Source: an uncultured archaeon (lineage in GTDB: Archaea > Asgardarchaeota > Thorarchaeia > Thorarchaeales > Thorarchaeaceae). Taken from it: a stretch of 64,000 nt of DNA. Shown here piece after piece: positions 7,889-44,300 of the stretch; position 1 is the first letter of the stretch, and each line of letters begins with the position of its first letter. Location of the stretch: contig CAYWJO010000003.1 in assembly GCA_964458565.1 (NCBI GenBank), positions 78,675 through 142,674 of the forward strand. Direction: 5' to 3'. The translations under genes and the position numbers were made by a program. The notes beneath the pieces are model-generated. The model was given only the letters and a program-made list of their open reading frames with translations. It did no database searches and was not told the DNA's origin.

Positions 7889-9250
7889 ATGCCTGAAGAG
7901 AAACTCTCTGTTGAAGAACTCAAGAAGAAGGCTGAGAAGCCTGGAAAAGATGCAATGATTTTACACCCATTCTATAAGGGAAAAATCATGAGCATAGGAA
8001 AGGCTCCTGTCCGTAGTTTTGATGATTTTGCAATCTGGTATACACCTGGTGTTGCCAAACCATGTCTTGCAATAAAGGATGATGAAGAAGCTGCTTACGA
8101 ATACACAAACAAAGGAAACATGGTAGCAGTAGTAAGCGACGGAACTCGTGTATTGGGACTTGGTGACATCGGACCATATGGAGCAGGACCGGTGATGGAG
8201 GGGAAAGCGATCCTCTTCAAATACCTGGGTGGTGTTGATGCATGGCCTATCTGTCTTGAAACGAAAGACGCTGAGAAGATTATTGAAACAGTGAAGCTCA
8301 TTCAACCAAGCTTTGGAGGAATAAATCTCGAAGATATCTCGAAGCCAAAGTGTTACGAGGTACTTGAAAGACTGAGGAAAGACCCAGAGGTTAAAATTCC
8401 TGTTTGGCACGATGACGCTCAAGGTACAGCTACAGTTGTTTTAGCTGGTGTGCTTGGAGGATTGAATGTTGTCAAGAAGGACATTGAGAACATCAGAGTG
8501 GCCTTACTTGGGGTAGGTTCAGCAAACACACGAACTGCATACCTTCTCTTTGCAGCAGGTGTTAATCCAAAGAACGTAGTAATGGTTGATAGCAAGGGAG
8601 CTATCTATGCCGATCGCGAAGATATCGTTAAGGACAAGGATTATGACACCTTCAAGTACGATCTCGCTCAAAAGACAAACCCTGATAGAATGAATGGAGA
8701 CCTCGGCGAAGTTATCGATGGCATGGATGTCCTGATTTCAGCTTCTCGACCAGTTCCAGGTGCAATTAAGAAAGAATGGGTTGCCAAAATGGCCACTGAT
8801 TCAATCGTTTATGCGTGTGCCAATCCACTTCCTGAGATCTGGCCTTGGGATGCTATAGAAGCAGGTGCCAGAATTGTGGGAACCGGTAGAAGTGATTTTG
8901 ATAACCAAATCAACAATTCACTTGGTTTCCCAGGTATCTTTAGAGGTACACTTGATGTGAGAGCCAGAACAATCACTGATGAGATGTGTGTCGCAGCTGC
9001 CCAAGCTCTGGCAGATCTTGGCGCTAGAGAGGCAAGCGACAAGAAGGTAATTCCAACTATGGATCAGTGGGAGCTCTATCCGCTTGAAGCTACAGCTGTG
9101 GGTATGAAAGCTATGGAGCAAGGTATCGCGCGAGTGCAATGGGAAGAAAAGGAGCTGTATAAGCATGCAGAAGACGTTATTCGTACAGCAAGAGCTGCTT
9201 CTGAAATGCTGTACAGAGAAGGTCACATCCCGAAAGCACCTCCGACCTGA
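7889..9250 (+). CDS. NAD(P)-dependent malic enzyme (short archaeal/bacterial form)
   Basis: 453 aa. Malic-enzyme N-domain motifs (YTPGVA, VSDGTRVLGLGDIG) and the Rossmann GxGxxG motif LLGVGSA. Length fits short MaeB-like enzymes. Confidence 0.9.
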   Translation: MPEEKLSVEELKKKAEKPGKDAMILHPFYKGKIMSIGKAPVRSFDDFAIWYTPGVAKPCLAIKDDEEAAYEYTNKGNMVAVVSDGTRVLGLGDIGPYGAGPVMEGKAILFKYLGGVDAWPICLETKDAEKIIETVKLIQPSFGGINLEDISKPKCYEVLERLRKDPEVKIPVWHDDAQGTATVVLAGVLGGLNVVKKDIENIRVALLGVGSANTRTAYLLFAAGVNPKNVVMVDSKGAIYADREDIVKDKDYDTFKYDLAQKTNPDRMNGDLGEVIDGMDVLISASRPVPGAIKKEWVAKMATDSIVYACANPLPEIWPWDAIEAGARIVGTGRSDFDNQINNSLGFPGIFRGTLDVRARTITDEMCVAAAQALADLGAREASDKKVIPTMDQWELYPLEATAVGMKAMEQGIARVQWEEKELYKHAEDVIRTARAASEMLYREGHIPKAPPT

Positions 9251-16253: not shown

Positions 16254-16808
16254 TCAATAATAAGTCCGTTTTGGCTTGGATAAGTTATGTTTCCGGACCT
16301 TTCTCCCAAAGATAAGTCCTGCAGTAGTAGCAATCAAGCCTCCCAATACGCCAGGGATAATTATTGGTAGAGTATCTGGACCGACACCACCCGCCATACT
16401 TGCACCAACAAACGCAATAACAATCGCAAGCGGACCTAGAAGGCCGCAATAGCAAGCAGCTTCATATTCCCCGGTTTTTTGAGAATATATGTCATGCCCA
16501 TATGCATCCTTTGCATAGATTGGAACCATGGTTCCTCTGTAAGCAAATATCGCTGCAGCTATAAAGAAGACTCCGAATACACCACCAATTAAAGCGAGAA
16601 TGCTGTTTTGATAGAACATGAGAGATATGCCAACTTCAGCGAAGCCAATTATTCCCGCTATCCCAAATAAATTTCCAGCAGTTCGAGATGTTACACCCAA
16701 TACTAATGCCTCCTTAATTACGAATAGCAATTGTGTCAGTAGCAGAGCCTTGATATCTACTTTATCATTTTTATTTTGTGTGAAGATTGGAAGAATACTT
16801 TCAGTCAT
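16254..16808 (-). CDS. small polytopic membrane protein
   Basis: 184 aa, Gly/Ala-rich, with 4-5 hydrophobic helices. Confidence 0.45.
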   Translation of the reverse strand: MTESILPIFTQNKNDKVDIKALLLTQLLFVIKEALVLGVTSRTAGNLFGIAGIIGFAEVGISLMFYQNSILALIGGVFGVFFIAAAIFAYRGTMVPIYAKDAYGHDIYSQKTGEYEAACYCGLLGPLAIVIAFVGASMAGGVGPDTLPIIIPGVLGGLIATTAGLIFGRKVRKHNLSKPKRTYY

Positions 16809-16820
16809 CCCTCTCTGTAG

Positions 16821-17996
16821 GTGCTTAAATACCCTTTACGAGACAAAAAGATGATAGAAATGGTTAAGCCGCACCGCAGTCCGAAAGGACTCTTTGACCC
16901 TTACTATGTACCAGAGAATATCCTACACAGGGATAGAGAACTCGATCAGATTGAAGGAGTCTATTCTGACTCTTATGAGAGCGAATACGGTGTGAACTGT
17001 CTTGTTCACGGAATATCTGGAGTGGGGGCTACTGTGTTTTCAAGGTATTTTCTGACAAAGATAGTACCTCAGCAATTTGAAGCTCATACAATCTATGTGG
17101 ACGCAAAGAGAAAAAGTCCTACTGAGATTGTGAGCGAGCTGAATGATAAGATTCACAGGTTGGCAAACAGACCTATTACCGTAGCATTCGATCTTGATGT
17201 TCTTTGGATGCAATTCAAGAGAACCGCCAGTGATACTTCCAAGAGGACTGTATTTGTTCTTGATAATGTTAATGAGAACAACGAGGAAATCTACACGAAG
17301 GTAGCACAACTCTCTAAGGAGATCAAAGCCAGCACAATCGGTGTGCTGAATAGTCACGATTACAGAATGCTGACGAAGGGCATGGCTACACAGATGGCAT
17401 ATGACTTTGAAATTCCACTTGACACATACACTCAATCCCAGCTTTATGAGATTATTAGAATGCGCGTAGAAGATACCTTTCCTTTGGGACTTACTGATGA
17501 GGTCATACGATACATCACAGATATCGTGCTTGAGTTTGATGCAGGAAAACCAAAGACCTCAATTGAAGCATTGAAAGCTCTCTGGCCTTTAGCACAGAAA
17601 GGAAAAGAGATTGACTCGGATATTGTAAGAGGTGCTACATCCAAGATTACATCATTCATTCAAGATCAGGATTACATGGATATTGTTGAAACCATAAGCA
17701 TGAACGACTTCATGACTCTGCTGGTTCTAGAAGCAATGAGCGAACATCTCATGCGATACAAGACAGAAACCTACATTGATAGGCAGACGTTGAATGAGCT
17801 CGTGATTATCAAGTTTGAAGAGCTTCAGGTCCGCTATTCCAATGAAGATATCGAGAGAAGCCTGCAGACTCTTATTTTTCAAAGCATTATCTTTGAATCA
17901 GGGTATTCGAGGAATCTCCTTTATGTTTTGGTACCACCTGAAATTCTTCACGATACCTCGCTCAGTTTAAGACGTGAATTAGCTCGCAGGAAGTGA
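16821..17996 (+). CDS. Orc1/Cdc6-like AAA+ protein with degenerate Walker A/B (probable pseudo-ATPase)
   Basis: 391 aa. N-terminus YVPENILHRDRELDQIEG matches the Orc1/Cdc6 lead-in. Walker A position reads GISGVGAT (Lys replaced by Ala). Walker B reads VFVLDNVNE (DE changed to DN). Sensor-1-like VLNSHD is present. The C-terminal region is winged-helix-like. Confidence 0.5.
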   Translation: MLKYPLRDKKMIEMVKPHRSPKGLFDPYYVPENILHRDRELDQIEGVYSDSYESEYGVNCLVHGISGVGATVFSRYFLTKIVPQQFEAHTIYVDAKRKSPTEIVSELNDKIHRLANRPITVAFDLDVLWMQFKRTASDTSKRTVFVLDNVNENNEEIYTKVAQLSKEIKASTIGVLNSHDYRMLTKGMATQMAYDFEIPLDTYTQSQLYEIIRMRVEDTFPLGLTDEVIRYITDIVLEFDAGKPKTSIEALKALWPLAQKGKEIDSDIVRGATSKITSFIQDQDYMDIVETISMNDFMTLLVLEAMSEHLMRYKTETYIDRQTLNELVIIKFEELQVRYSNEDIERSLQTLIFQSIIFESGYSRNLLYVLVPPEILHDTSLSLRRELARRK

Positions 17997-18040
17997 TCCA
18001 CTCTTTTGCGGTACAAGAATAGGGTTTTGTGTCCCCTATT

Positions 18041-28587: not shown

Positions 28588-29355
28588 GTGATGAGGTTGC
28601 CGCACTCTGACATGAAACTAGGCTTTCAGACAGCCGACAAGGCCATCCGGAGAACAGTGAGCACCGGAATAAAGGCATTAGACACTCTTCTAGATGGCGG
28701 TCTCGAACTTGGAATCATGCATCTCTTCTATGGCGACCGTAGTCTCTACAGGGACATCCTGAAGATGGCAGTACACATTCAATTACCAGAAGAACGTCGA
28801 GGTTTATCTAGTCCAACCATCGTCATCGATAGCGCCAATATGTTGAAGATTGAGGCACTCACTGAGTACGCCTTTGAATTTGACCTTGAACCGGAGTATG
28901 TGATGGATAGGGTCTATATCTCACGGGCATTCAATAGCTCACAGACTTACGACCTCGTGATGAATCAGCTCGAGTCGTTCCTAGAAAGAATCCCTGCAAA
29001 GTTACTGATAGTCTCAGGACTGCCGGACCTCTACCTCAGTGAAGGAATCGATGGAGAGGGGTTGCAGCAGATAACGCATATGGCAACCAAGGTGAAGAAT
29101 CTGGCTCTTCAGAGAAACATTGCTACCTTGGTCACCACACAACCTTCACCCAAGAATCCACGGTTTCCTGCCGGAGGAAAAGCACTGTCCAGCAGTGCAC
29201 AGATTCATGTTCATGTTGAGGAGTCAAAGTCCTATACACACTACACTCTTGCAAAGCATCCGCAGTTTCCGGTACGCAGAACCTCACGGGCAAAGACCAT
29301 AGATTTTGGTAGCACTCTTCCTCTATCCTACTTCCTCAATCAAGAGGAAGAATAG
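28588..29355 (+). CDS. RadB/RecA-superfamily protein with lost Walker A and B (probable pseudo-ATPase)
   Basis: 255 aa. TGIKALDTLLDGGLELGIMHLFYGDRSLYRD aligns with the RadB N-terminus (TGxKxLDxLLGGG...YGPPGSGKT), but GKT is replaced by RSLYRD. The Walker B hhhhD position reads LLIVSG. The C-terminal core (NIATLVTTQ) matches the RecA fold. Confidence 0.55.
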   Translation: MMRLPHSDMKLGFQTADKAIRRTVSTGIKALDTLLDGGLELGIMHLFYGDRSLYRDILKMAVHIQLPEERRGLSSPTIVIDSANMLKIEALTEYAFEFDLEPEYVMDRVYISRAFNSSQTYDLVMNQLESFLERIPAKLLIVSGLPDLYLSEGIDGEGLQQITHMATKVKNLALQRNIATLVTTQPSPKNPRFPAGGKALSSSAQIHVHVEESKSYTHYTLAKHPQFPVRRTSRAKTIDFGSTLPLSYFLNQEEE

Positions 29356-29373: not shown

Positions 29374-32300
29374 CTACTTCTTGCCTGTGAGACTCTTCAC
29401 AAATTCATCAACCAGCTCACGTGAGAGATGCTCGGCTTGCTCCATGATAGTATCGATCTCGTGAGGTGGCACACCCTTCTCCTCGAGTTCTTTTCTCAAC
29501 TCTGCTAGTTCAAAGGGACTGAGTTTCTCATCAGGGCTAGCAGGTCGTTCTGGTAAGTAGTCCTCAGGTCGTTTATCAGCCATCCGTTTTGCTTCGGGTT
29601 CAGCTTTCATGATAGTGGATTCCATCTCTTCGTCCACATCGATCGGCTCATCGAAGTCGATTGGTGGTTTCTTAGGTCGGTCCTCATCAACAAGGAAGAT
29701 TGAGTCTTCTTCAGGACCTCGATAGTCGACTCTTGGGACCTCACCCTCTTCAACTCCTGCAACCGTTCTTGAGGCCTGATCTGCAACCTCCTCGAGTACC
29801 TTCTCAACACTCTTACCATCACGTCGTGCTGCTCTGATTGCTTCCTGATAGATGACTTCTTTCACGAAAGCAGCCTGCTCACTCAACCTCATCTTGGAGA
29901 TGTCAGCCTTGAACTCGTCAAGCTCATCAGGGCTCAGATGAGTAAGAATAGAGAGCTGTACGAGTAACTCACCCATCTCTGGCACTGCAACTATAACAGA
30001 TTCTGATGGCAGCTGGTCTGGTCTTCGAGTGATTTTGACCTGTTCAAAGGTATCATTGAATAGCTCAGCAATCAGTTGATCTCGCCTTTTAGCCTCATCA
30101 ATAGGCTTTGGAACCTTACCTTTGCCTAGAGCTTTAATCTGTCCATTGATCTGACGAAGTCTCTTTGGTACGCTTAGCACTCTCACGTACAAAGCACCAA
30201 GCAATAGTAGAATGAATACTATTGGAGTTCCATATGATGTGACAGTGGTCAGTGTGTCTTGAAATTCTGTGGGAGTTATTCCAACCAATAATTCGATATC
30301 ACCATCAACATGGTTAACGCGATAGATTCTAATATCAATAACAGAAGACACATCAGGAAGACCAATCGGAAAAAGAACAGGAGCTTCAATTGTTAGTCTG
30401 TAAATTCCATTTCCAATTTCTTCCCAAGATGTGACATTTACAACTTCGGGATTTGATGATATGACCTTAATATAAGCCCCAGTTATTCCATCGCCAACAT
30501 GACCGGGCCATGCATCATAGAATCTTAGCTCTACCGTAGTCGGTACAGCATAATTAATATTGATTCTATCCTCACTGTCCACATTGTTTGATGTAAAGGC
30601 AGTATCTGTGGGGACATCTATAATCGTGATGAATATGGTGATAATAGATTGAGTTCTGTTCGCAGTTCTGAGAGGGATTGTAAATCGATATCTAGCATCA
30701 TCAACTCTGAAAAGACTCGTATCAAAGGTGAAACTGTAGTTACCATTTCCGAGCTCAATAATGTCAAGAGGACTTGTATCATATACAGGATGATAGTATC
30801 TAGCATAATCAACCTCATCCAAGGTCCAATTGGCTCCTTCAACCCCTCCAATAAATGGTGTGTCCCATGGAGCAACTGTGGCATTATAAAATAATATCAC
30901 TGTGATAGAATCACCAAATGGCACCACAAGCTGAGTGGCATCCATACTGGAGTTACTGTACTTTGGCGGATAAACAACAATCTCCGTTGGAATGGATCTT
31001 ACCCTCACCCGAACTGTTCTAGGAATATAATCATAATTATCCTTTCTAAAGTCTACAGTTAGGGAATACTCTTCAGTACTTGGTTCGACAAGAGTGCTGT
31101 CAATGAAAATACCATATGTTCCATTCCCAAATGGCGTCGCATTGAATTTCCTATTCGCCCACTGGTATGTAACAGTTGCATTGATAACAAGTGATTCATG
31201 ATCCTCATCAACAAAATTGAAACCATAAGTTCCATTTCCACCCCAAAATATTGCGGGTATTTCTGGTGCTTCAACCAAGGTATGAATTGCTCTGATACTA
31301 AGGGTTGTTGTTGTGCTATTCGATGTGTATTCCTTGTTGAGTGGAACAGCAGATATTCTCAATGTATAGGTCTGTGCTGGATATTGACTGGTATCGATAG
31401 AGACATTGTAGTATCCCCAATAATTTGCTCCAAAAACTGACCGATTTAAGAGATATAGCGGATATGGTGTTCCTTCACCGATCAGGCTCATTGTTACAGT
31501 TGCATCATTTCTCCAATGTTCGTCAGGATTCTCTGTTTCATTGATATAAGGTGCATATACCCACACACCCACCTCAACAATCTGAGACCAATAGAAGTTC
31601 TCATCAGCAATGCTTTGTGAATTAATATCAAGCTGAACAACAGTCATAGTCTGTTTTACAACGAGAGTCATGATGATTGGTGAGATGAGATAGTTGTTCT
31701 TTGATGCTTCAATGACCAGAGTATACGTTCTAGAAGCCTCTGCATCATCAGTATCGAGGATAAAGGAATAGTTGCCTCCGGTTTCCTGCGTGAAGTATTC
31801 AGATTGCTCGCTACCAAAATCCCAAGTAATTAGTACATTTGCATCAATTACTCCTTCACCAGCATAGGGAGAGTCACTCACTTCTAGATTCACTCGGATA
31901 GTCACTTCAGAACCCCTAGTTGTATCAAGAGTGAAATCATCACCTGATGGATTAATACTCACAGGAATTTGGAGTATTGTCAATGTGACTGATTTTGTCT
32001 GAGTTATGTGATTCTCATAACTAGCAATTATCTGGATGGCATAGGTTCCGTGAGGTACTAGTTGTGTATCTAAGGAGAATGTGAAATTACCAGGAACTCC
32101 TGTAGCTATGAGGGGGATGTCTGAACCTAGAATCCAGCTATAGGTCAAATCACCAGCTAGGACTGGTCTACTGTGTACAGTATCATAATAGACAGCTGTA
32201 ATCGTCACTTCGTCTCTCCAGTAAACAGAAATACTAGAATCTGAAAGAGTAAGGTCGGTCTCTACTTGTTTAATTTCTATGTCGAAGTATACAGCAGAGA

Positions 32301-35300
32301 TTGAATAGCTGGACAGAGATAACACAATTTTGAGTATCTTTACACCATAGGGAATCGAAGTTGTCTGGAATGTAATGTTATAGAAACCACCAGAAATAGG
32401 TGTAACGTCAGATACACTCAACCATGTAACTGTACTACTTGCACCATCCACGAGAACATTCGCATCTGTGTCATTCAACCAAACCAGAATATAACCTTCA
32501 TCTCCAGCAAACCTGGATTTTGTTGATGATACTTCTTGAATACTCGCTTGACGCAAACGGACTTGGAAGGATACCTGTGATTCTGCCTCGTCATATGGAT
32601 ATAGGTTGAATGTAATTACAAGACTTTTGAGACCTGCAGCTCCCGCATCTAAAGTGTTCACAGTAATAAGATACTGACCATCAAACAGAAATTCAATATC
32701 CCATATGGCAGGTTCAGAGCCACTACTGTAGACAACAGTAATTGATGATGAAACGTCGTTAATATAATGACGAGGATCAGGCAAAGTGTGATCTATATCG
32801 TTTAGAGTAATCGTTATAGACACGTTATCCTTTAGAGGAACTGTAGAAGGTACCGGTGAGTCAGGAGTTATGGATGTGCGAATTCCTCTTACAGATCCAA
32901 CCATTGGTACTCCGGAGATGTCTCTATAGAAGGGTCTCGATGAATCAATCCAATCAAGGTTAAGACGGAAAGTGAAAATACCAAAACTTCCCAAGAATGT
33001 TGTACTTACATCGATGTAATATTCACCAGGCAATGCTCCAGAATATACCCAGTAATTAGCGCCCCATGTTAGAGTAACTTGGTCACAAGCTAAAGTGATT
33101 TGGGTTAATGGAATGACAATACCGTTCCCGGTTGTATCGTCAGTATAATTGAAAGTGAGCCTCATGAGATCTTGCATTGGAGTGTCAGGAGAAAGACCAA
33201 TCGTGATTCTAGCCACTCGTTTAGTTATTGTAACACTGACAGGGGTGCTGTCACTCGCATAATATGGTGCACCTCCAGACCATGTGACCGTGATCGTTAA
33301 AATACGAGTCAGAGTCGCATTGGCGATCTTTGTTGTATTAATTACTATTCTGAAATAATTGATTTCAGGTGTAATTATATAATTAGACGGACTGAGTAAT
33401 GTACCTCCATTGTATATGATTACATCACCAGAATCAATGATAATATCATTCCCAGTTCCTACATCAGTAAATGCTAATGTGAAGTTGAACAAATCAAGAT
33501 ATTTCGTCTGCTGAGGAGGATCCTTCACATCTACATTAGTAGGTCTTGTCGTTACGGTGATTCGAACACTGATGACAGCTTCGTTGTAGTAGTATGGTGC
33601 ACCGATTTTGTTAGCGAAGACGAAGATCGTATATTGTGCTGGAGCACCTAAAGCAGAAGTATTCAGATTGATCTGATATTCACCTGCCGTTAGAGCATCC
33701 CAAGTATAATACATCAATGCGATAGGTGAACCATTACTGTATTCAAGGCTGATTGATGCACCATCAATTCCAATACTTGCATCAGTGTCAAGGTACAGTA
33801 CAACGAATGGATTGAGAGGTGATTCTGTAATATCATTGTAAGCGGTAGGTTGAGGAGATTCTTCAAGATCTATTGAAGCAATCCTTCCTCTGATTGAGAA
33901 TGCAATGTAAAGTTCATCAGCAGCATAGAATGGCTCAAGATTAACATAAGACATACGAACGTGCAAGGTGTAATTTATTCCACTTCCAAATCCACGTCCT
34001 GCAGTTTCAACCTGCAGTTCATATTTCTGTGAATCCGAATCCCAAGTAATTGAATAAACATAATCAGGTCCGGTGGTGTTGAGGATTTCGAAAGATGTGT
34101 AAAACGTTGTGCCATTCACTATGGTCTGAAGAGTGAGAATATCTTGATAGTCTAATATCACATTCATTATGGTATCAATACCAATCCGCCCAACAGGCTC
34201 ATTCGAAAGTATTGTTGATCGATATCTAACACTAAACTGGCGGATAGACCATGCATCTTCGACATATTCTGAACCCGTATATGTGAAACTAGCATTAAGG
34301 GTAAATAATCCAGGAGTAGCAAAATAGGATGAGTCCAAGTCTATTTCGAATACACCTGAACCCAAGTAATTCACGGAGTAAAATCCTGTTAATGGATAAT
34401 TACCAGAGATGTTAGAGTAGAATAATGCAAAATCACAATCAGAATCTAGAATACCAGTAGTAGTAAGCCCTGCAATGTCTTGATACTCTACTGTGAACAC
34501 TACACTATCACCAAATGGTGTTGGGTCAGGAGATTGAAACTCGACTATCGATGCTCGTAGTGTGACGGTGATTCTGATTGTAATTAATGTTCTATTTGAG
34601 TAGTAAGGCGCACCAGCCCAAGTCACACTCAAAGTGAATGTCTTTTGACCTATCCCACCAAATTGTGCAGTATCGAATTCAATTGTAAATTCTGTCACAC
34701 CAAAGATTTCAGGTGTTTCGAACAAGCTGGTTGAGATATCCATGTGAGTGGGATCGAAGGATATAGCACTCTCTCCACCACCTGACACATCAAGGAATGA
34801 GAAGGTGAATGTAGCGTTTTCGCCATATGCAGTATTGATTGGTGGTGATACTGAAACAAGTGTGTCGCGGGGTATGATGCTAACCTTTGTAGTAGACGAA
34901 TCATCACGATAATAAGGAACAGACCCATCCCAAATGACTTCAACGGTGATTTGTAAGTTGTTTATCAATACTGTACTTAGGGTTACTGAATTGATTGTAA
35001 CCTCAAATGATGTACCTGTTGTACCATTCAAAGTATAATCTACAACCTGAGTAAGCAGAACACCTTGGTCGTAGATTTTGATGTCAGAATCACTAATTTG
35101 CACCTTCTGACCGGTTACTGCATCAGTGAAAGCAAAAATGAATGTCACATCCTCGAGATAATTGGTAGCTGATGGAGCAACAAGTATCTCAACGTTTGAT
35201 GTTCGTTTCACAACTTGTGCTGTTACTGTTAGGTTTGCCATTGCATGATATGGAATACCTGAGTAACTAGCACTTACTTTCAGACTTGTTGCACCCAATC

Positions 35301-38300
35301 CATCCAATGCAGTGGATAATACTGATACGTCGTAGTAACCGGGAGAGCCAGGGGTGACCAAATAGTCAACATCTTGAACCAAGGTCGTTAAGCCTTTATA
35401 GATCGAGACTGTACCGCCAGAGATAGTGGCATCAAGATCCACATCGTAGTAGCGAATCGTGAAATTAACATATTCAAGGTAAGGTGTATCGCTTGGAGAG
35501 ACTGAAAGGTCAAGAGTCGAGTATCGCGCTCTAGTTTCAATATCCGCAACAGTAGTTCGACTACTATAGAATGGTGCAGCATTTTGGTATGATAATTGAA
35601 TTATCAGACTGGTTACATTACCAGGAACCATTGCTGGATGATTATAAGTCTGAACTGTTAGTAAGTAATAATTGTAGGGTGCTCCAAGCCAAGACATGCT
35701 GGAATACCAGGTACCCGGACTCAATATCTGCACTGAAACATCGTGGTCAATGTTGTCTAGAGTCAGGAAGTCCTGATAATAGAGTATAATGTCAACTGAG
35801 GTGTTGTATGCATTTCTTGGAACCGGGTCAGCAGTCAGAAAAGTTGTTCGATACCTAATCTCCAAAAATCTTGATGCTGTAACATCAGGCATGAAGAATG
35901 TATAATTTGTTAGATATACTCGAAGACCAAATGTTCCAGGAGTTGTATAATATGATGCATTGAAATCGACAGAATATTCACCATCTCCAAGAGGTGTGAC
36001 TGAATAGTAGGAGAATGGTATATAGATGGACCCAAGAACATCATAGAGAGTTAGATTCACATTATTATCGATAGGACCACCAGTGCCCGTAACATCTGTC
36101 CAAATCACTGAAAACACAACATTATCACCAAATGGAGTGGGAGAAGGAGTCTGATATTCCACTACAGTTTGCCGCAATGTCAACGTGACTGAGATTTGCC
36201 GCCCATATCGATCAGCGTAGAATGGTGCTCCATCCCAAGTCACACTGAGTGTGAAGGATTTCTTCTCAATAGGTGCAGTGAATTGATTAGTATCAAATGA
36301 TACTGTGAATGTCTTGTCAGTATCATTATAGAACAATGAGAAATCTGCGAGACTGAGTATAATCTCCATTGTTGTTGAATTATAAGCAATCGGAACACTT
36401 CCTGCGCCAGTGACATCATCGTATGTGAATATGAAAGTAGCATTCTCACCATAGGGAGTAGGAGTAGGTGGTGTAACAGAGAGTATTGTGTCTCTTGGAT
36501 TCACACGTACTGCAATCACATCAGTTCTATTAGTGTAATATGGATCTACTCCAGGATTCCAACCAATGTAGACATTCATCAAGATGACGCCTGTGGTTCC
36601 AAATATGGTGTTGTTAAATGAGATAGAGTAATTTCCAGGTTGACCAATAACCTCTGTTATAGTCACCTTTGACAAATCTACCGTATAACTTTGGAATTCT
36701 ATAGATATGAAAACGTTACCACCTGGTGGATTCCCAGATGTTGTATTATCAATCCCAATACCTGTGAAGAAGTCACTGTAAAAGAACGTGTAAGTCATAT
36801 TCTCAAGATAGGGTGTCGGTTCAGCAGTGATTAGTAGAGCATATGCAGATTCTGTACCACCAATATTGACCTGGGTGTTGATAGTCTTATTTTGATAGGT
36901 ATAAACAGGACCAGTCCAGTTGAAGAATATCTTCAGACCAAAGAGACCTGGACCAAATTGATTTGCAGGTACTTTGATTACGTAGTAACCAGGTAGAGTT
37001 CCATTGAATAGGTATGACGTAACTGGTAGTCCATTGATATCTTCTACTCGATGGAGCACATACTTTGATTTGATGCCAACTTGATCATCAAGGTCACCGT
37101 AGAACACATCAATCGTGATATTAGCATTGAAGTAAGTAGGCTCGGGTGCATTAACTGTTCTAAAGTCCGTGTTATGTGTTCTGAGAGAGATTGTAAGATT
37201 GAATAGACCAAATTGATAGTTTGAGCCCTTTGAGAAATTAAAGAGAACAACGACGTTCTGTTGTAGGGGATCATCCACCTCAGTTGGGAGTGTGATTCGA
37301 TATCTACCTTCACCCAAGAGGTATTGCATAATAACAGGACGCCCAAACAGAGTATCCCATCCAGTGTTCAATTCGAAAAGTCCACTATCATCAATAGGCA
37401 AATTATTGTCAATATCCCAATATTCTACATAGAATACAGGATCATTCCCAACAGGGATATCTAATGCACCAACAGTTGGAATTGCATAGGTATACACAAT
37501 TCGGACTAGAATCCGGAAGTTACTCAATGTTCTTGCAGCATGAATAGTTGATTCTGCAGTGAGGTCAAAGTAGTGAATACCCCTATCAAGACCACCAACA
37601 AGAAGTGTTACATTATAGAGTCCGGGGGTACCTGGAAATTCGTAATAAGATATGGAAATACCTGTAGCAGTTATTGTAGCACCAGATATTCCAGCATTTC
37701 GGTCGATATCAGTATAGTTCAGAGTAATCCAGACATCGCTTCCATATGGAGTAATGACTTGCGGATAATTGTCTGAAGATAGGAAGCTCAGAGCCTCACG
37801 ATATTCAAAAATTATTATCAGACTTGTTGAACCGTAGCGAGAGTCTGAAGGAATAACACGAATAGTAATAGAATAAGATCCTTTCTTTTGGAAGAAAGTA
37901 GCAGAGATACTCAAATTATATCTTCCATCAGATAAGAATGAAATTGATGCAGGAAATGTGTATCCTGTCCCGTTTGTTACTGTGAATTCGCCCTGAGTAA
38001 TTCCGTTGATAGGTGCACCATTATATTGGTTCCCGTCCTCACTTACATTGAAACGGATGATTATTTGGAAATCATCATCAATTGGGTAAATCAGATCTGT
38101 TGGCTCGTTGTAAAGATAGGTTTTCAGACTGTGAATGACAATATCAAAAACATAGTTCCCTGGATGGCCATATATTCCACTCATCGTCATTGATAGTGTT
38201 ACAGTTTCAGTCCCTACATTCCAGATGTTTGTTGGAAGTACTAAGTCTAGTTGAGTATTTGAGGGAGAGTAAGGTGCATACCCAGAACTAAACGTGAATC

Positions 38301-41300
38301 CAGCAACAGAGCTATTATCGAGTTGAGCACCTGTATCTAAATCAGTTATTACAATTGTGAGTGGTGTATCATTACCATATGGACTCACTAAATCACCAAT
38401 CACAGTAATTGCAGTGTAATGAGTTCGTATTATGATTGAGAAGCTATAATCATCTGGACTCTCATAGATTCCTGTCATATCCAATCCAAGTGTAACGGGA
38501 TGAGATGCAACAGACCATGTGTCTGTAGCGAGTAGTACATCAAGATCAAAGATTCCAGGGGAGGTTTCATTATGGTTCCCCGTAGCCCAAACAAATCCAA
38601 ATGATCCAACATCCGAATAATCTAAGATAGATACAGTATCAAGATCTGTTAGTAGGATAGTAACTGCAGTTGTATAGCCATATGCTGTGACAAAGTCACC
38701 TTGAACAGTCATAGCAGTGTGATGCTTTCGAATAGTGATCGTGAAATCATAATCAGTAGGATCATAATACTCGCTACTGCCAACCATTGTGACACTGAGA
38801 GTGACTATTTCATCTCCAATACTCCAGAGATTTGTGGGCAAGTTAACATCAAGATCACTTGGCGTTACCTCACTATATGGTGAAGGAATAGATGTGAAGT
38901 TGAAATAATAGACTGAGGTATGAGTTAATTCGGATGCTGTATCCAAGTCAACAATGACAATTATTAATGGAGTGTTGAAACCAAATGGAGTGAGAAGGTC
39001 TCCATCAACGCTGAGAGACGTGTAGTGCTTTCGTATAGTCACAGCGAAATCATAATCATCAGGACTACTGTAGATATTATTCATAGTCAAGGTCAAGGTC
39101 ACTGTATCAGAACCAATTACCCAATCATCTGTTGTAAGAGTGTAATTGAGATTTGTTATACCTGAGCTTTTTCCTTCAAATTCCGAAGACGATGTAAATG
39201 TGAACGAACTGACGAATGTATGATCAAGATTAGTACCTGTATCGAGATCAACAAGGACTATGGTAACATGAGTGACTTCCCCATAAGGTGTAATAAAATC
39301 ACCCTGTACTGACATAGCTGTGTGATGTTTTCTGACTAAAATCTCAAAACTGTAGTCAGTTGGATTGAAATAGTCACTATCCATGATAACGCTAAGCACC
39401 ACAGTTTCAGGTCCCAGGGTCCAATCATCAGTTGTTAATGTAAAATCAAGACTGCTGATTCCGGGTTGATTATCACCCTCAACTTCCCAGGAAGTGAAAG
39501 TGAATGATTCGATCTCATTTTGAGTGAGTAACAAGCCTGTATCAACATCCGTAAGGACGATTGTTACATCTGTGGTAAACCCGTAAGGTACCAGGAAATC
39601 AGCCTGGACTCCAACAACAGTGTAGTGTTTTCTTATTGTAACCACGAAATCATAATCGGAAGGACTTTCATAGTCACCAGACATAGACAGACTTAGTGTA
39701 ACCGACACCTGACTAACGGACCAACTATCAGTGTCAAGTGAGTGATTGAGAGTTGATGGAGAACCTGGATCTGAACCATAACTTGACAGGAATGAATAAC
39801 TACTCACGAAGGTATCATCCAACTGAGTACCAGTATCAGTATCAGTCAAAACAATAGTTAGATTTGTATCATAACCAAACGGTGTGACCAAATCCCCTTG
39901 TATGTTTGTTGATGTGTAGTGTTTCCGAATCTCAACATTGAATTGATAGATATCTGGAGCAGCGAATATTGGATTAGACATTTTAATTGTAAGATTGACA
40001 ATCCGTGTCATCACTGGCCAACTACTAGTATCTAAAGTCACATCCCAACTTGTTGCTTGCTCAAACTGAGAGCCACCACTCCAATTGAATGTATAATTAC
40101 CGACATTACCAAGTGCTACAGATGCTCCGGTATCCAAATCTATGATGCTGATTGTGAGAGGTGATGTACTACCAAACGGTTGAATGAAATCTCCAGAAAC
40201 CGAAGCAGACGTGTAATGACCTCTAATTGTGACATTAAATACAAAATTATCAGGTGAGTCATATGATGAGCTATCCACAACAGCGAATGTGGTGACCGTT
40301 CTAAGCCCCACAGGCCATGGACTTGTATCTAAAACAAAATCAAATGTTGAAGTAGCACTTGGATTCGCATCCTGATAACCCCCTGTCCATTGGAAACGTA
40401 CTAATGTAACATCGTCAGTTGCAAGCTCAGTACCTGTATCAGTGTCTAAAACAATGATCCTGACATCTGTGTCAAGTCCATGTGCAGTTGTGAAATCCCC
40501 TGTAATCATAAGGGCTGTGTAGTGCACACGAATCTGGACATCAAATTGATAATCATCTGGAATAGCATAATTTGGATTTGAAAAGCTGACTGAAAGGGTG
40601 ACAGTTTCAGCGCCAACAAGCCAACTACTGGTGATAAGGGTGACATAATTATTTCCAGGTGTCGTAACATCCTGAGTGCCATAGGAAGATGTGAAACTCA
40701 ATTGACTAACATTGAGTATTCCAATATCATCACCCGTATCAAGATCAATTATCTTTACATTGATGGGAGTATTAACTCCGAAAGGTGTTGTCAATCCTCC
40801 ACTTACAGACACTGCAGTATAATGAGTCCGAATAGTTACATCAAATGAATAATCAGTTGGATTAGAGTAGTTAACATGACTCATTAAAAGTGACAATGTG
40901 ACTACTCTGGTACTAACACTCCAGTCAGATGTGTCCAATAAAACATTCAACGAACTACCATCAAATGGTTGTGAATCACCAAACCATGAAAGTATGAAGG
41001 AATCAACATAGGTTTCATCCAACTCTATACCGAGATCAGTATCAATTACTACAACAGTGAGATTAGTTTCTAATCCATATGGTGTTATGGTATTACCAAC
41101 AATTGATGCTGTGGTGTAATGTTTTCTGAGAATGAAAGTGATTTCTGTGTAACCTTGCTCCAAGAAGAAACCAGATTTGGTGGCATTGAACGCAAATATG
41201 TGTTCGCCAAGATTGAGACCTGAAGTGGATACTGAGATATTATATTTTCCACCGCCCTGTGCTTCAACGGTAACAGGACTACCATCTGAGAGCGTTATTG

Positions 41301-44300
41301 TCGCACCCGTTATGGGTAGGCCTGTATATGCATTGGTAAAGACCAGAGTAGCCTTGAAGTCAAATCCAACTGGTGTAGTGGAAACATTGAGGTAGGTCAA
41401 TGAAGTATGATGATAGAGTTGTAGGTCAAAATGAGTAGTGGCATCATTATAGTATGGGTGTGATGATTGTATATCTATCCTCCAAGAAGTTGCAGTTCCT
41501 AGATCAGAAGTATTGACTGCAATTCCGTAATATCCTGTGCCATAATCGTTGAACGTTTTCGCTGTTGGTGAACCTGAAACCGTCCAATTCATTGAAACAG
41601 TCGCACCAGTGATACTCTGGGAGTTCACATCGTCATCGAGATAGACCTCTACGTAGAGCAAGTCTCCAGCAAATCTGAGTGAGACCTGATCGCTGACAGC
41701 ATCACCAGGAGAAACAAGAGTTAGAGATGAATCATGTTTCACTAGAAACTCACGTTCATAGAGGCCTGTCTTATCACTAACAGATGCGCCCGTATCATTA
41801 TAGTATACTGAAACAGTCCAAATCCCAGCTGGTGCTGTTGAATCAATTGTCTTGGTGACTGAGTGTTCTGGAGAAGTACGTGTTTGTTGAGATCCTCTCT
41901 GAACAAATGTGGTCGGTGCAAACATATTCTTGTATTCGGTGGAAATCCATCCACTTACACGTTGGACACCTGCTATTCGGACCTCATCTATTTTTCCTGT
42001 GTGATAAGCCTCACCTGCTGAAACCTCTGAGGGGTCTAAATACCCACCACCAATACCCCAATCAGTTGTGAAAGCTAGATTTAGAGAGCTTGCACCAGTA
42101 TGGACTGTTGTGCTCGTGTCATCAACTCCGTTTATGAAAATCTTATTATTTGAAGGAGCGTCAGCATCCATATAGCATGTATAGTAATACCATCCAGATG
42201 ACCAAGATGTAGTAGTTGTGTATTTAGTGTATTCTGAGCCACCAACCTCAAATCCAAATGCCAGACTACCAGGAGAGTTTGTGGATTCGGAATAGTCAGC
42301 GCCTATCAGCATGATATGGAAGTTGTCATCACCATCCAAGTACTTCGACATCAGGAGTCTTGAGGGACTAGAAGTTGAACCCCACGAATCTGCTATGTAA
42401 AACCATCCAGAAAGTGTTAGATCACCACTTAGGTCTAGACCTTCTGAAGCAGCGATAGATATCCAGTCATTACCATCAAAGTCCTGACCATAACTATGAC
42501 CATCTCTCATCCCTACTGTCCTGTCTGTACCATTTCCAGTTCCAGTATAATTGCCAATTGTTGAGTCATAGAAGGCATTACCAAATGTTTCGTCTGTATA
42601 ATCTTCTGAGAGATGCCATACTGCATCATAATTATTAGTCCAGACCTCCGTGGGCTGCTCAGTTGGACCAATCACAGGATTCCCGTAGTACATATACAGG
42701 GTGTTGCTAAGTGTACTGGTTAGATTCGCTTTCACCCAAGCTACAAGTGCACCAGAATCATATCGCTCAATTTCGTGAGACAATACTTTGCCAATACTGT
42801 CTGTGAAGACAATATCATCACCATCAGACTGGGCACGAGTTCCTAAATCCGTATCAGAGAAACTCACCATAACTGGGAAGTTTGTCACATCTGCATCAAC
42901 CTGAGATGCGAGGATAGTTAGGACTTTTCGATATTGAAACGATGGGACATGCCATGTTGTACCGGGGGTACCAGATGTTGCGGAGGTTTCATACCAGACT
43001 GTATCAGTAGGATCTGATAGTACGAAACCAACCTTTGCATTTTCAATCCATGGAGTTGTTGCTCTGAACTGAGCCACATCATTGATATCAAATATAGCAG
43101 TATCTGACAGGCTCTGCCCATTGATTCCTAATTGGACGTTTTGAACATAATTCCAGCTCTGGAACTTAATCTCCCAAACGCCCCAAATGTCAACCGCAGA
43201 TGAGAATATAGTGAGCTTTCCACCAGTATAATCCCAATCTGTACCTTCAATCTTTGCTTGACCAATAGGATTAGTCACCGAGGTGGGAATCCACTCAGTA
43301 ATTGGATAGTTAACGACAAAGTCCATTGAATCAGTTAAAGCAGGAGGAGAAACAAGGATATTAGCTGTCCAATCAACCAAACTCGAATTGGTCACGAAGA
43401 AGGAAGTTCCTTCTTGCATATTCTCATCAAGAGACGAACCAGTTCCTATGAAGTCCATGCTGAGTGTGATACCAACATCAATCGGGCTAGTCGAGCTTGT
43501 TGAAATCAGGAATTGCACCTGTTCGTCAGCGGACCAACCTACGGTGTTTGTATTCTCGGAACCAACAGAGTAGAATGTATCAGGACTATATTGATTATTG
43601 AATTCGGTTTCTATCCAACTTGTTGATAGAAACATTGTCGTCATTCTGAGCTCATCAATTGTCCCATTAAAGAATCGATCCAATACCGGATTATTTTCAT
43701 CAATCATTTGCCAATTTCCAATAGTAAAGTTCAATGTAGAATCTTCAGGAGTGACTCCATTCTTTGTATCTGTTTGAATAAGACTTCCATCAACATATAT
43801 ATTCGATTCAGCAGTGGCAGCACTCCATGTCCACACTAAATGATGCCAGTTCTGTACGGTCACGCCGCCTGCATCAACTGAAGTAGCTGTACTATAATCT
43901 GTGCTGTATCTTATTCTGAAGTTGGTTCCTTGAACAGCAAAGTGAATTATCGCATCAACTGGATTAGTATTAGGGGCTTTTGAGAAGATTCGATCGTCAT
44001 CTGTGTCATTATGAAATATCCATGCACTGATGGAGAAACTTGACCAATCGTCTGTAGCAATTTGTCCAACACTTAATACATCATCATCACCATCGAAATT
44101 GAGACCATAACCCACCTGCCCAGCAACAACATCATTAGAAGACATTGAACCATTCGAAAATCCATCATGGTTGTTCCATGTACTATCAAAGATTGTGCCA
44201 CTGGGATTATCGTCCATATGTTGAACCATCTCGTAATTATTCCATATATTGGTGGAATCCAAATCAACTGAAGATCCACAATAATGCATTCTGATTACAG

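What the first reader, a model, noticed from the sequence alone, without database searches (positions are those of the whole stretch)
16821..17996. Orc1/Cdc6-like AAA+ protein with inactivated nucleotide-binding motifs, abutting the 3' end of giant gene 1
The protein follows the Orc1/Cdc6 template (YVPE..L.hR..E...I, P-loop position, Walker B, sensor 1, helical lid, C-terminal winged helix). The Walker A Lys/Thr are GVGAT instead of GxGKT. Walker B is DN instead of DE. The sensor-2 Arg context (GDAR) reads DAGKPK. This looks like a replication-initiator fold repurposed as a non-hydrolysing, possibly DNA-binding or scaffolding protein. It converges on the giant surface-protein gene with only 44 bp between the stops.
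Basis: partly seen in the sequence, partly recalled or inferred. Interest (0 to 1): 0.6.

Follow-up and report, generated by a model that had tools for sequence, protein, structure and literature searches.

The report
Catalytically dead Orc1/Cdc6 paralogue, Thorarchaeota
This gene from an Asgard (Thorarchaeota) archaeon encodes a well-conserved copy of the DNA-replication initiator Orc1/Cdc6 that has lost its ATPase residues and its basic DNA-gripping wing; related genomes also carry a normal initiator, much as eukaryotic origin-recognition complexes combine active and dead subunits.

Summary

It is not a decaying gene. More than 100 Thorarchaeota orthologues share the losses, and dN/dS is about 0.01-0.04. 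It is 95% identical to its closest relative, where the flanking genes are 59-67% identical.

It belongs to a wider Asgard clade (Loki-, Hel-, Thorarchaeota) of degenerate Orc1/Cdc6-like proteins marked by "EFDxx[RV]PG" in place of GDAR. The winged helix is acidic and its wing is shortened. Three Thorarchaeota genomes carry a canonical ORC1, so this is an extra paralogue.

The adjacency to the giant gene is lineage-specific and incidental. The most likely role is a non-catalytic, protein-binding factor, possibly linked to replication; that role is inferred, not shown. I found no special affinity to eukaryotic ORC2-5 and no published description of the clade.

The parts
16860..17996 (+). Coding sequence of the degenerate Orc1/Cdc6-like protein (378 aa from the conserved Met; alternative starts are ATG 16851 and GTG 16821)
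   Evidence: ORF. The N-termini of more than 100 orthologues begin at MV[KR]P.... Orc1/Cdc6 similarity.
16825..16831 (+). TATA-like box TTAAATA about 29-35 nt upstream of ATG 16860; implies a very short leader (inferred)
Evidence: Sequence. Its promoter function is inferred, not tested.
17010..17033 (+). Walker A remnant GISGVGAT; Ala replaces the P-loop Lys
   Evidence: HMMER register against 2qby_A and 2v1u_A. In 106 family members this position is M, R, A, N or S and never K, while the glycines and Thr are invariant. It follows strand beta1 (residues 49-54) in the model.
17163..17231 (+). Region equivalent to the initiator-specific motif (PITVAFDLDVLWMQFKR), highly conserved within the family and containing an invariant Trp
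   Evidence: Aligned to PFTGLSIAELYRRLVKA of 2qby_A. F113, D114 and W119 are invariant. An 'LW' is also conserved in the wider clade.
17250..17267 (+). Walker B remnant VFVLDN; Asn replaces the catalytic Glu
   Evidence: the family has DN or DG, never DE. It lies at the end of strand beta3 (residues 132-138) in the model.
17337..17354 (+). Sensor 1 (IGVLNS), Asn retained
   Evidence: Aligned to GITND of 2qby_A. Found in 104 of 106 family members. It lies at the end of strand beta4.
17367..17396 (+). Arg-finger (box VII) region MLTKGMATQM; Met sits at the position of the canonical Arg
   Evidence: Aligned to LLDPRVKSSL of 2qby_A. The family has no Arg at that column.
17532..17561 (+). Sensor-2 position: EFDAGKPKTS replaces the canonical xxHGDARRAL (Arg->Pro). 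This is the clade signature EFDxx[KRV]P
   Evidence: Pro is invariant in the family. The motif is shared by the wider degenerate clade.
17709..17936 (+). C-terminal winged-helix domain, acidic and with a shortened wing
17937..17990 (+). Extra C-terminal helix ending in the conserved basic tail SLRRELARRK
   Evidence: Helix 363-380 in the model. R374, R375, R380 and K381 are nearly invariant.
18011..18048 (.). Hairpin in and next to the 44-bp spacer between the convergent stops; possibly a shared terminator
   Evidence: Minimum free energy -16.3 kcal/mol, z=-2.47, 3 of 200 shuffles fold as well. This is weak evidence and the function is inferred.

Best explanation
The gene encodes a vertically inherited, strongly constrained pseudo-ATPase paralogue of the archaeal replication initiator Orc1/Cdc6. 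It keeps the whole three-domain architecture: AAA+ base, helical lid and C-terminal winged helix, modelled in the compact conformation seen in P. aerophilum Cdc6. It has lost the Walker A lysine, the Walker B glutamate, the arginine finger and the sensor-2 arginine, so it cannot run the ATP-hydrolysis switch that controls canonical Orc1/Cdc6. It has also lost the basic wing and recognition-helix residues that canonical proteins use on origin DNA. It belongs to a wider Asgard clade (Loki-, Hel-, Thorarchaeota) of degenerate Orc1/Cdc6-like proteins, and the Thorarchaeota branch is the one that additionally lost the P-loop lysine. Thorarchaeota also carry a canonical ORC1, so this protein is an accessory factor and not the initiator ATPase. 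Shown here: homology, fold, motif losses, purifying selection, clade membership, and the presence of a canonical ORC1 in the class. Inferred: it works through protein-protein contacts as a fixed-state, non-hydrolysing structural or regulatory partner. The most plausible partners are in the replication-initiation machinery (canonical ORC1 and/or MCM), by analogy with the dead AAA+-like subunits of eukaryotic ORC and with Sir3.

For: Motif losses are in register and conserved across 106 orthologues. The Walker A position floats among M, R, A, N and S and is never K.

Selection: dN/dS is 0.014, with pN/pS 0.043, against the 95%-identical orthologue. Between the same two genomes the flanking genes are only 59% and 67% identical. 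Against other Thorarchaeota the protein is 61-78% identical while most neighbours are 43-68%.

Vertical inheritance: the synteny malic enzyme-(M28-CCG-FAD_binding_4)-ORC-like-(methyltransferase)-GCV_H recurs in Thorarchaeota.

Wider clade: motif table and neighbour-joining tree; source labels Lokiarchaeia, Helarchaeota and Thorarchaeota.

Canonical ORC1 in three Thorarchaeota MAGs has GKTGTGKT, VVLDEVD, GDAR and a wing reading KGRYGRTKK; the L013 protein passes the NF001625 and TIGR02928 cut-offs.

DNA-binding surface is degraded: winged-helix net charge -6.4 against +3.5, a truncated wing, and a whole-protein pI near 5.0.
Against: No experiment and no conserved operon partner ties the protein to replication. 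Its neighbours are metabolic genes, and the contexts in Thorarchaeota and in Loki/Helarchaeota differ. The P-loop glycines, Walker A Thr, Walker B Asp and sensor-1 Asn remain invariant, so residual nucleotide or other ligand binding is not excluded. The conserved basic C-terminal helix could still contact nucleic acid. Presence of a canonical ORC1 was shown for three other Thorarchaeota genomes, not for this genome or for one shown to hold both genes. Complex formation with ORC1 or MCM was not tested.
Confidence: 0.6

Rival explanations
1. It is a nucleotide-binding but non-hydrolysing switch locked in one state. The retained P-loop scaffold still holds ATP, ADP or another phosphate ligand without the lysine, and the protein acts as a constitutively 'on' Orc1/Cdc6-like factor.
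For: G54, G57, G59, T61, D138 and N167 are invariant or nearly so, even though the Lys position varies. The nearest sister subfamilies keep GxGKT while lacking the Walker B Glu, a configuration expected to bind but not hydrolyse ATP. In S. islandicus Orc1-2, ATP binding switches regulation on and hydrolysis switches it off (PMC9738581 abstract).
Against: The Lys position is free to be Met, Ala, Asn or Ser, which argues that no phosphate-contacting role is selected there. The sensor-2 Arg and the Arg finger are also gone. From general knowledge of P-loop NTPases, loss of the Walker A Lys usually lowers nucleotide affinity by orders of magnitude.
Confidence: 0.2
2. It is a DNA-binding transcription regulator of the Orc1-2 type, like the Sulfolobales DNA-damage-response regulator, that no longer needs ATP.
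Against: Orc1-2 function needs ATP binding, ATP hydrolysis, the ISM and the wing arginines R381/R383 (PMC9738581 abstract). Here the ATPase residues are gone and the wing is shortened and lacks those arginines, with the winged helix net acidic. The RadA-like neighbour is not retained in the divergent L002 locus or in Loki/Helarchaeota.
Confidence: 0.12
3. It is a divergent 'shell' Orc1/Cdc6 copy brought in by a virus, plasmid or defence island, or a decaying pseudogene.
For: It is very divergent from canonical Orc1/Cdc6 (about 20% identity). Raymann et al. 2014 (PMC3914693) describe divergent extra copies that derive from integrated elements. There is a marginal PHROG hit (E=1e-4).
Against: The chromosomal synteny is conserved and the gene is distributed across the class. 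dN/dS is about 0.01-0.04. It is among the most conserved genes of its neighbourhood. There are no PADLOC hits, and no integrase or viral domains were found among the neighbours that gave Pfam hits; several neighbours gave no hit at all.
Confidence: 0.03

Closest known systems
Archaeal Orc1/Cdc6 initiators (TIGR02928; structures 1fnn, 2qby_A, 2v1u, 1w5s)
   Same: Same three-domain architecture and the same N-terminal YVPExLxxRxxE motif. Significant sequence and fold similarity. Sensor-1 Asn is retained.
   Different: Walker A Lys, Walker B Glu, the Arg finger and the sensor-2 Arg are all lost. The winged helix is acidic with a shortened wing. The gene is not next to an origin-sized intergenic region. 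The score is below the curated family cut-off (77 against 181 bits). Identity to the canonical Thorarchaeota ORC1 is only about 21%.
Eukaryotic ORC subunits with degenerate AAA+-like domains (Orc2, Orc3; non-hydrolysing Orc4/Orc5 in some species)
   Different: There is no specific sequence affinity. The degenerate-clade profile hits Orc4 and Orc5 at 2e-4 and 3e-6, whereas the canonical archaeal profile hits them at 4e-24 and 2e-12. Published phylogenies place the ORC1-5/CDC6 duplications after the split from known Archaea (PMC7058166). Complex formation was not tested here.
Yeast Sir3 (Orc1 paralogue)
   Different: It arose independently in a eukaryote by recent duplication, has a different domain composition (a BAH domain), and has no orthology with this protein.
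Sulfolobales Orc1-2, the non-initiator DNA-damage-response regulator
   Same: It is an Orc1/Cdc6 paralogue with a non-initiator role. The family is marginally closer to the Orc1-2/1fnn-like profile.
   Different: Orc1-2 depends on ATP binding and hydrolysis, on the ISM and on wing arginines (PMC9738581). All of these are degraded here.
Lokiarchaeales RfcS2, the Walker-B-less clamp-loader subunit (Feng et al. 2025, PMC12680538)
   Same: It is an Asgard-specific paralogue of a replication AAA+ protein that has lost a catalytic motif and coexists with the active paralogue. It is a conceptual parallel.
   Different: It belongs to a different family (RFC). For RfcS2 the paper reports co-purification and a phylogenetic affinity to eukaryotic RfcE. 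Neither is available for this ORC-like clade.

Membership tests
Orc1/Cdc6 (ORC1-type DNA replication protein; TIGR02928 / NF001623-6) | Significant sequence similarity across the AAA+ and lid domains | tested here: met
   TIGR02928 E=1.2e-21 over residues 23-309; 2qby_A E=1e-12 with the single sequence and 7.7e-16 with the profile.
Orc1/Cdc6 (ORC1-type DNA replication protein; TIGR02928 / NF001623-6) | Score at or above the curated family cut-off | tested here: not met
   77 bits against a cut-off of 181.3 for TIGR02928, and 45-48 bits against 311-501 for the NF0016xx models. The canonical Thorarchaeota ORC1 from L013 passes with 417.6 and 505.8 bits.
Orc1/Cdc6 (ORC1-type DNA replication protein; TIGR02928 / NF001623-6) | Three-domain architecture: AAA+ base, helical lid, C-terminal winged helix | tested here: met
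Orc1/Cdc6 (ORC1-type DNA replication protein; TIGR02928 / NF001623-6) | Walker A GxxGxGK[ST] | tested here: not met
   The motif reads GISGVGAT. Across 106 family members the position is M, R, A, N or S and never K.
Orc1/Cdc6 (ORC1-type DNA replication protein; TIGR02928 / NF001623-6) | Walker B hhhhDE | tested here: not met
   The motif reads VFVLDN. The family has DN or DG.
Orc1/Cdc6 (ORC1-type DNA replication protein; TIGR02928 / NF001623-6) | Sensor-1 Asn | tested here: met
   GVLNS aligns to GITND and is conserved in 104 of 106 members.
Orc1/Cdc6 (ORC1-type DNA replication protein; TIGR02928 / NF001623-6) | Arg finger (box VII) and sensor-2 Arg (GDAR) | tested here: not met
   Met sits at the finger column. 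GDAR is replaced by AGKP with an invariant Pro.
Orc1/Cdc6 (ORC1-type DNA replication protein; TIGR02928 / NF001623-6) | Basic winged-helix recognition helix and wing (G-R-x-G-R-T) for origin (ORB) binding | tested here: not met
   The wing is about 6-8 residues shorter. Winged-helix net charge is -6.4 against +3.5 and K+R is 6.4 against 13.1. The canonical Thorarchaeota ORC1 has TQRR and KGRYGRTKK at these places. This is a sequence-level test only.
Orc1/Cdc6 (ORC1-type DNA replication protein; TIGR02928 / NF001623-6) | Gene adjacent to a replication origin with ORB repeats | tested here: not met
   The flanking spacers are 51 bp and 44 bp in the window and about 70 bp in L001, L003 and L004. 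That leaves no origin-sized intergenic region.
Orc1/Cdc6 (ORC1-type DNA replication protein; TIGR02928 / NF001623-6) | ATP-dependent origin binding and MCM recruitment | not testable with these tools
   This needs biochemistry.
Eukaryotic-type non-catalytic ORC subunits (Orc2/Orc3-like) | Orc1/Cdc6-like fold with a degenerate nucleotide site, coexisting with a catalytic Orc1 | tested here: met
   Motif losses. Canonical ORC1 is present in Thorarchaeota genomes, although presence of both genes in one genome was not demonstrated.
Eukaryotic-type non-catalytic ORC subunits (Orc2/Orc3-like) | Specific sequence or phylogenetic affinity to Orc2-5 | tested here: not met
   The degenerate profile scores weaker against Orc4 and Orc5 than the canonical archaeal profile does.
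Eukaryotic-type non-catalytic ORC subunits (Orc2/Orc3-like) | Stable hetero-oligomer with the catalytic subunit | not testable with these tools
   No multimer prediction or biochemistry was available.
Cdc6/Orc1-2 cluster (Raymann et al. 2014) | Closer to Orc1-2 than to Orc1-1 in profile or phylogenetic comparison | tested here: inconclusive
   hhalign score 240 against 191 for the Thorarchaeota family and 279 against 227 for the wider clade, in favour of the 1fnn-like group. With HMMER the best PDB hit is instead the Orc1-1 protein 2qby_A. The midpoint-rooted neighbour-joining tree places the clade outside both groups.

The most novel reading that the evidence does not exclude
Asgard archaea of the Loki-Thor lineage may run a heteromeric initiator: the canonical ORC1 ATPase plus this conserved non-catalytic ORC-like subunit. 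That would make them an archaeal instance of the mixed active and dead AAA+ design of eukaryotic ORC, whether by parallel evolution or as a so far unrecognised precursor state. It would parallel the Walker-B-less RfcS2 reported for Lokiarchaeales clamp loaders.
Probability: 0.15. Interest if true: 0.85.

Novelty: new variant of a known kind. Interest (0 to 1): 0.55.

Why it matters
How the eukaryotic origin recognition complex came to combine catalytic and non-catalytic Orc1/Cdc6-derived subunits is an open question. Current analyses place all ORC1-5/CDC6 duplications after the split from known archaea (PMC7058166) and treat ORC2-5 as gains of the last eukaryotic common ancestor (PMC12680538).

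This work identifies a strongly constrained Orc1/Cdc6 paralogue that is conserved across the class and has lost both its ATPase residues and its basic wing. It sits within a wider Asgard clade of degenerate copies, in a class whose members also carry a canonical ORC1. That makes it a concrete candidate for testing whether sub-functionalisation of the initiator began, or arose in parallel, in Asgard archaea.

It also matters for annotation. Sources label these proteins variously as "orc1/cdc6 family replication initiation protein", "cell division control protein 6", "AAA family ATPase" or "hypothetical protein". Counting them as initiators would inflate estimates of initiator or origin number in Asgard genomes.

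Tried and rejected
1. A conserved gene triad of ORC-like gene, small minus-strand gene and ~255-aa plus-strand gene shared by Thorarchaeota and Loki/Helarchaeota. The layout looked the same. The proteins are not homologous: forced alignments give about 20% identity, and the small protein is a Zn-ribbon in one class and helical in the other. Rejected.

2. A functional link to the giant surface-protein gene. The gene is absent at that position in L001, L002, L003 and L004 and present only in the closest relative. Rejected as incidental.

3. A paralogue or canonical Orc1/Cdc6 inside the 64-kb window. A family-HMM scan of six-frame ORFs found none.

4. Finding a canonical Thorarchaeota Orc1/Cdc6 through the protein searches. 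Cluster look-ups of top canonical hits gave Methanomethylophilus and Nitrososphaeraceae, or no names. The profile search listed only the best 120 hits, none labelled Thorarchaeota. This was finally solved with the genome-contig scan.

5. ORB-like repeats beside the canonical Thorarchaeota ORC1 genes, as a contrast. Only short two-copy repeats were found, which is not convincing.

6. Special affinity to eukaryotic ORC2-5. Not found.

7. Defence-system or phage origin. No PADLOC hit and only marginal PHROG hits.

8. The first AlphaFold run, using only close orthologues, gave a poor model (pLDDT 71, with a low-confidence P-loop). It was superseded by the model from the 96-sequence alignment.

9. 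The afdb50 fold library was unavailable, and the supplements of Feng et al. 2025 are not held.
Full report
**What is there.** The window carries an ORF at 16821..17996 on the plus strand, 391 aa if read from GTG. It converges on a 3192-aa minus-strand gene whose stop is at 18041, which leaves exactly 44 bp between the two stops. The orthologues are 377-381 aa long and begin at a conserved Met in MV[KR]P.RSPKG. In the window that Met is ATG 16860, with ATG 16851 as an alternative. The probable product is therefore 378 aa, translated from a transcript with a very short leader; this last point is inferred. The window as a whole is about 41% G+C, and homologue labels identify the organism as a Thorarchaeota-type Asgard archaeon.

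**Is it Orc1/Cdc6-like?** Yes.
- Sequence: NCBIfam TIGR02928 (orc1/cdc6 family) matches at E=1.2e-21 over residues 23-309, although the 77-bit score is far below the curated cut-off of 181 bits. Pfam finds only weak AAA_22 and AAA_16 hits.
- Solved structures by sequence: the best hits are S. solfataricus Orc1-1 (2qby_A, E=1e-12; 7.7e-16 with a family profile) and A. pernix ORC1 (2v1u_A).
- Fold: a first AlphaFold model built from close orthologues alone was mediocre (pLDDT 71). A second model built from a 96-sequence alignment spanning the family, its distant relatives and canonical proteins reached pLDDT 94.5 and pTM 0.90.
- All three domains are present: AAA+ base, lid and C-terminal winged helix. 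There is also an extra C-terminal helix.

**Are the motifs really dead?** In the HMMER register, the substitutions are as follows.
- GISGVGAT aligns with GLTGTGKT, so the Walker A Lys becomes Ala.
- VLDNVN aligns with VLDEID, so the Walker B Glu becomes Asn.
- The box VII segment LTKGMATQ aligns with LDPRVKSS, so the Arg finger becomes Met.
- FDAGKPKT aligns with EHGDARRA, so the sensor-2 Arg becomes Pro.
- GVLNS aligns with GITND, so the sensor-1 Asn is kept.

In the model these motifs lie after beta1, at the end of beta3, at the end of beta4 and at the start of the lid, as expected for AAA+ proteins. No alternative GK[ST] or hhhhDE appears in the sequence.

**Is it a functional gene?** The protein search returned 113 orthologues at 47-95% identity, labelled Thorarchaeota where a label exists.
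- In 106 near-full-length members the Walker A position is M (80), R (14), or A, N or S, and never K. Walker B is DN or DG and never DE. The sensor-2 Pro is invariant. A column that floats freely inside a protein with 75% mean column identity indicates that the lysine's function was lost long ago, while the rest of the protein remained constrained.
- Against the 95%-identical orthologue (L088), dN/dS is 0.014 and pN/pS is 0.043; dS is near saturation. Between the same two genomes the flanking membrane protein is 59% identical and the C-terminus of the giant gene is 67% identical.
- Against three more distant Thorarchaeota loci, the ORC-like protein is 61-78% identical. Six syntenic neighbours are 43-68% identical, and only malic enzyme is higher (80-86%).

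This is a slowly evolving core gene, not a pseudogene.

**Genomic context.** In other Thorarchaeota the order is malic enzyme, (M28 peptidase, Fe-S/CCG protein, FAD_binding_4), ORC-like, (UbiE-type methyltransferase), GCV_H, small Zn-ribbon protein, Rad51/RadA-like, giant gene.
- The 3192-aa giant gene abutting the ORC-like gene in the window, and the 184-aa membrane ORF upstream, are found only in the closest relative. They are lineage-specific insertions. The 5599-aa giant gene further downstream is the syntenic one.
- The intergenic spacers next to the ORC-like gene are 44-72 bp, too short for an origin.
- No other Orc1/Cdc6 homologue lies in the window. The rest of the window encodes metabolic and housekeeping functions.
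- There are no PADLOC hits and only marginal PHROG hits.

**A wider clade.** A full HMMER scan of 1.84 billion representative proteins with the family profile found 491 hits at E<=1e-3. A motif table and a neighbour-joining tree of the best 150 split them cleanly into two groups.
- Canonical Orc1/Cdc6, with GxGKT, DE and GDAR.
- A large degenerate clade. In it the sensor-2 motif is replaced by EFDxx[RV]PG(xC). The Walker B Glu is almost always lost (DN, DS, DD, NN, QN and others). The residue after the Walker A Lys is often not Thr or Ser (GKN, GKK, GKG).

The Thorarchaeota family nests inside this clade, next to subfamilies that still have GxGKT. Together with one neighbouring branch (GVGRT), it is where the lysine itself is lost. 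Where sources give names, the sister subfamilies come from Lokiarchaeia, Helarchaeota and 'Ranarchaeia', plus one Bathyarchaeota-labelled MAG. Their gene neighbourhood (KaiC-like ATPase, Robl/LC7, ORC-like..., actin, histone) is conserved within Loki/Helarchaeota but is unrelated to the Thorarchaeota neighbourhood. An apparent shared triad of ORC-like gene, small gene and 255-aa gene proved to consist of non-homologous proteins.

**Is there a canonical initiator as well?** I scanned the species-representative genome collection with an alignment of canonical Asgard ORC1 proteins. Three contigs titled Candidatus Thorarchaeota (L013, L039, L053) were among the 80 best loci.
- Their products carry GKTGTGKT, VVLDEVD (VAVLDEID in L053), GDAR, a TQRR recognition helix and a KGRYGRTKK wing.
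- The L013 protein passes the NF001625 equivalog and TIGR02928 cut-offs, at 505.8 and 417.6 bits.
- They are only about 21% identical to the window protein.

Thorarchaeota therefore possess a bona fide ORC1, and the degenerate protein is an additional paralogue. Presence of both genes in one and the same genome could not be shown with the tools left.

**DNA-binding potential.** I compared the Thorarchaeota family, the wider degenerate clade and 74-77 canonical sequences.

| Property | Thorarchaeota family | Degenerate clade | Canonical |
|---|---|---|---|
| Winged-helix net charge | -6.4 | -3.5 | +3.5 |
| Winged-helix K+R count | 6.4 | 8.4 | 13.1 |
| Whole-protein pI | about 5.0 | 5.7 | 7.3 |

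The wing loop is about 6-8 residues shorter and lacks the G-R-x-G-R-T motif. [quoted passage not shown] None of these elements survives here. The region equivalent to the ISM is nevertheless among the most conserved parts of the family (invariant F113, D114, W119). So are the clade-specific lid motif EFDxxKP...L+xLWP and the basic C-terminal tail. These are candidate interaction surfaces; that is an inference.

**Which lineage does it derive from?**
- HMMER, however, ranks the Orc1-1 protein 2qby_A first.
- The midpoint-rooted tree puts the clade outside both groups.

I leave this question open.

There is no special affinity to eukaryotic ORC2-5. The clade profile hits human Cdc6 (5e-13), Orc1 (5e-9), Orc5 (3e-6) and Orc4 (2e-4). 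The canonical archaeal profile hits Orc4 at 4e-24 and Orc5 at 2e-12.

**Literature.** Searches of the held library found no description of this degenerate Asgard clade.
- The 2025 Asgard replisome study treats ORC2-5 as gains of the last eukaryotic common ancestor. It notes only that Cdc6-1 and Cdc6-2 copy numbers expand in many archaea. It does describe an analogous Walker-B-less RfcS2 in Lokiarchaeales (PMC12680538).
- Ocana-Pallares et al. place the ORC1-5/CDC6 duplications after the divergence from known Archaea (PMC7058166).
- Raymann et al. distinguish slowly evolving, syntenic 'core' Orc1-1 and Orc1-2 from divergent 'shell' copies (PMC3914693). This family is unusual because it is divergent from the canonical proteins yet behaves like a core gene.

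**Conclusion.** The protein is a replication-initiator fold that has been turned into a non-hydrolysing protein and kept under strong selection. My evidence adds five points.
- The loss extends to the Arg finger and to the DNA-binding wing.
- The protein belongs to an Asgard-wide degenerate clade.
- A canonical ORC1 exists in the class.
- The adjacency to the giant gene is incidental.
- A protein-binding role is more likely than canonical DNA binding.

Its actual partner and pathway remain inferred. I put the pseudo-ATPase-paralogue description at high confidence and the specific replication-accessory role at modest confidence.

Noticed in passing
window 28588..29355 (+): A 255-aa RadA/Rad51-fold protein (Pfam Rad51 1.2e-16; NCBIfam RadA 4e-22, far below cut-off) that lacks the Walker A GKT. 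It reads LFYGDRSLYRD where I recall RadA having GEFGSGKT. It is a second degenerate ATPase from a DNA-metabolism family, lies in the same Thorarchaeota syntenic block as the ORC-like gene, and is 58-65% conserved.
   Followed up: partly
window 18041..27619 (-) and 29374..46173 (-): Two giant genes of 3192 and 5599 aa share similar repeat-rich ectodomains and a nearly identical C-terminal transmembrane segment plus cytoplasmic tail (…PKRLRQINGQIK..KGKVP.P..EAK…LFNDT…EELDEFKADISKM…), so they look like paralogues. The larger one is syntenic in other Thorarchaeota. The smaller one is seen only in the closest relative.
   Followed up: partly
window 16254..16808 (-): A 184-aa multi-pass membrane ORF with no family hit lies between the FAD_binding_4 gene and the ORC-like gene. 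It is 59% identical to a gene in the closest relative (L088) and is absent from L001, L003 and L004, where those two genes are about 70 bp apart.
   Followed up: partly
window 57375..59711 (-): A 777-aa protein with a weak C-terminal EAP30/Vps36 (ESCRT-II-like) hit at E=8e-6, just below the Pfam cut-off. It is a possible Asgard eukaryotic-signature protein.
   Followed up: no
window 18011..18048: A hairpin with a 9-bp core (AAUAGGG…CCCUAUU) lies in and next to the 44-bp spacer between the convergent stops. Its free energy is -16.3 kcal/mol with z=-2.47. It may be a shared terminator, but the evidence is weak.
   Followed up: partly
proteins P0122-P0163, P0182, P0183, P0189 (not in the window): The degenerate Orc1/Cdc6-like clade has many deep subfamilies with ever more eroded motifs: P-loops GKN, GKK, GKG or GKH; Walker B QN, NN, HQ or RS; and a conserved EFDxx[RV]PGxC. 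Some are fused to longer N-termini of 419-586 aa. The clade appears to have expanded in Lokiarchaeia.
   Followed up: partly
L005-L007 (Loki/Helarchaeota loci), about 8001-9161: The sister-subfamily gene sits in a conserved block with a KaiC-like ATPase, a 350-400-aa Robl/LC7 protein, an actin homologue and a histone. Its upstream intergenic region is unusually long, 290-440 bp, and was not examined for origin-like repeats.
   Followed up: no
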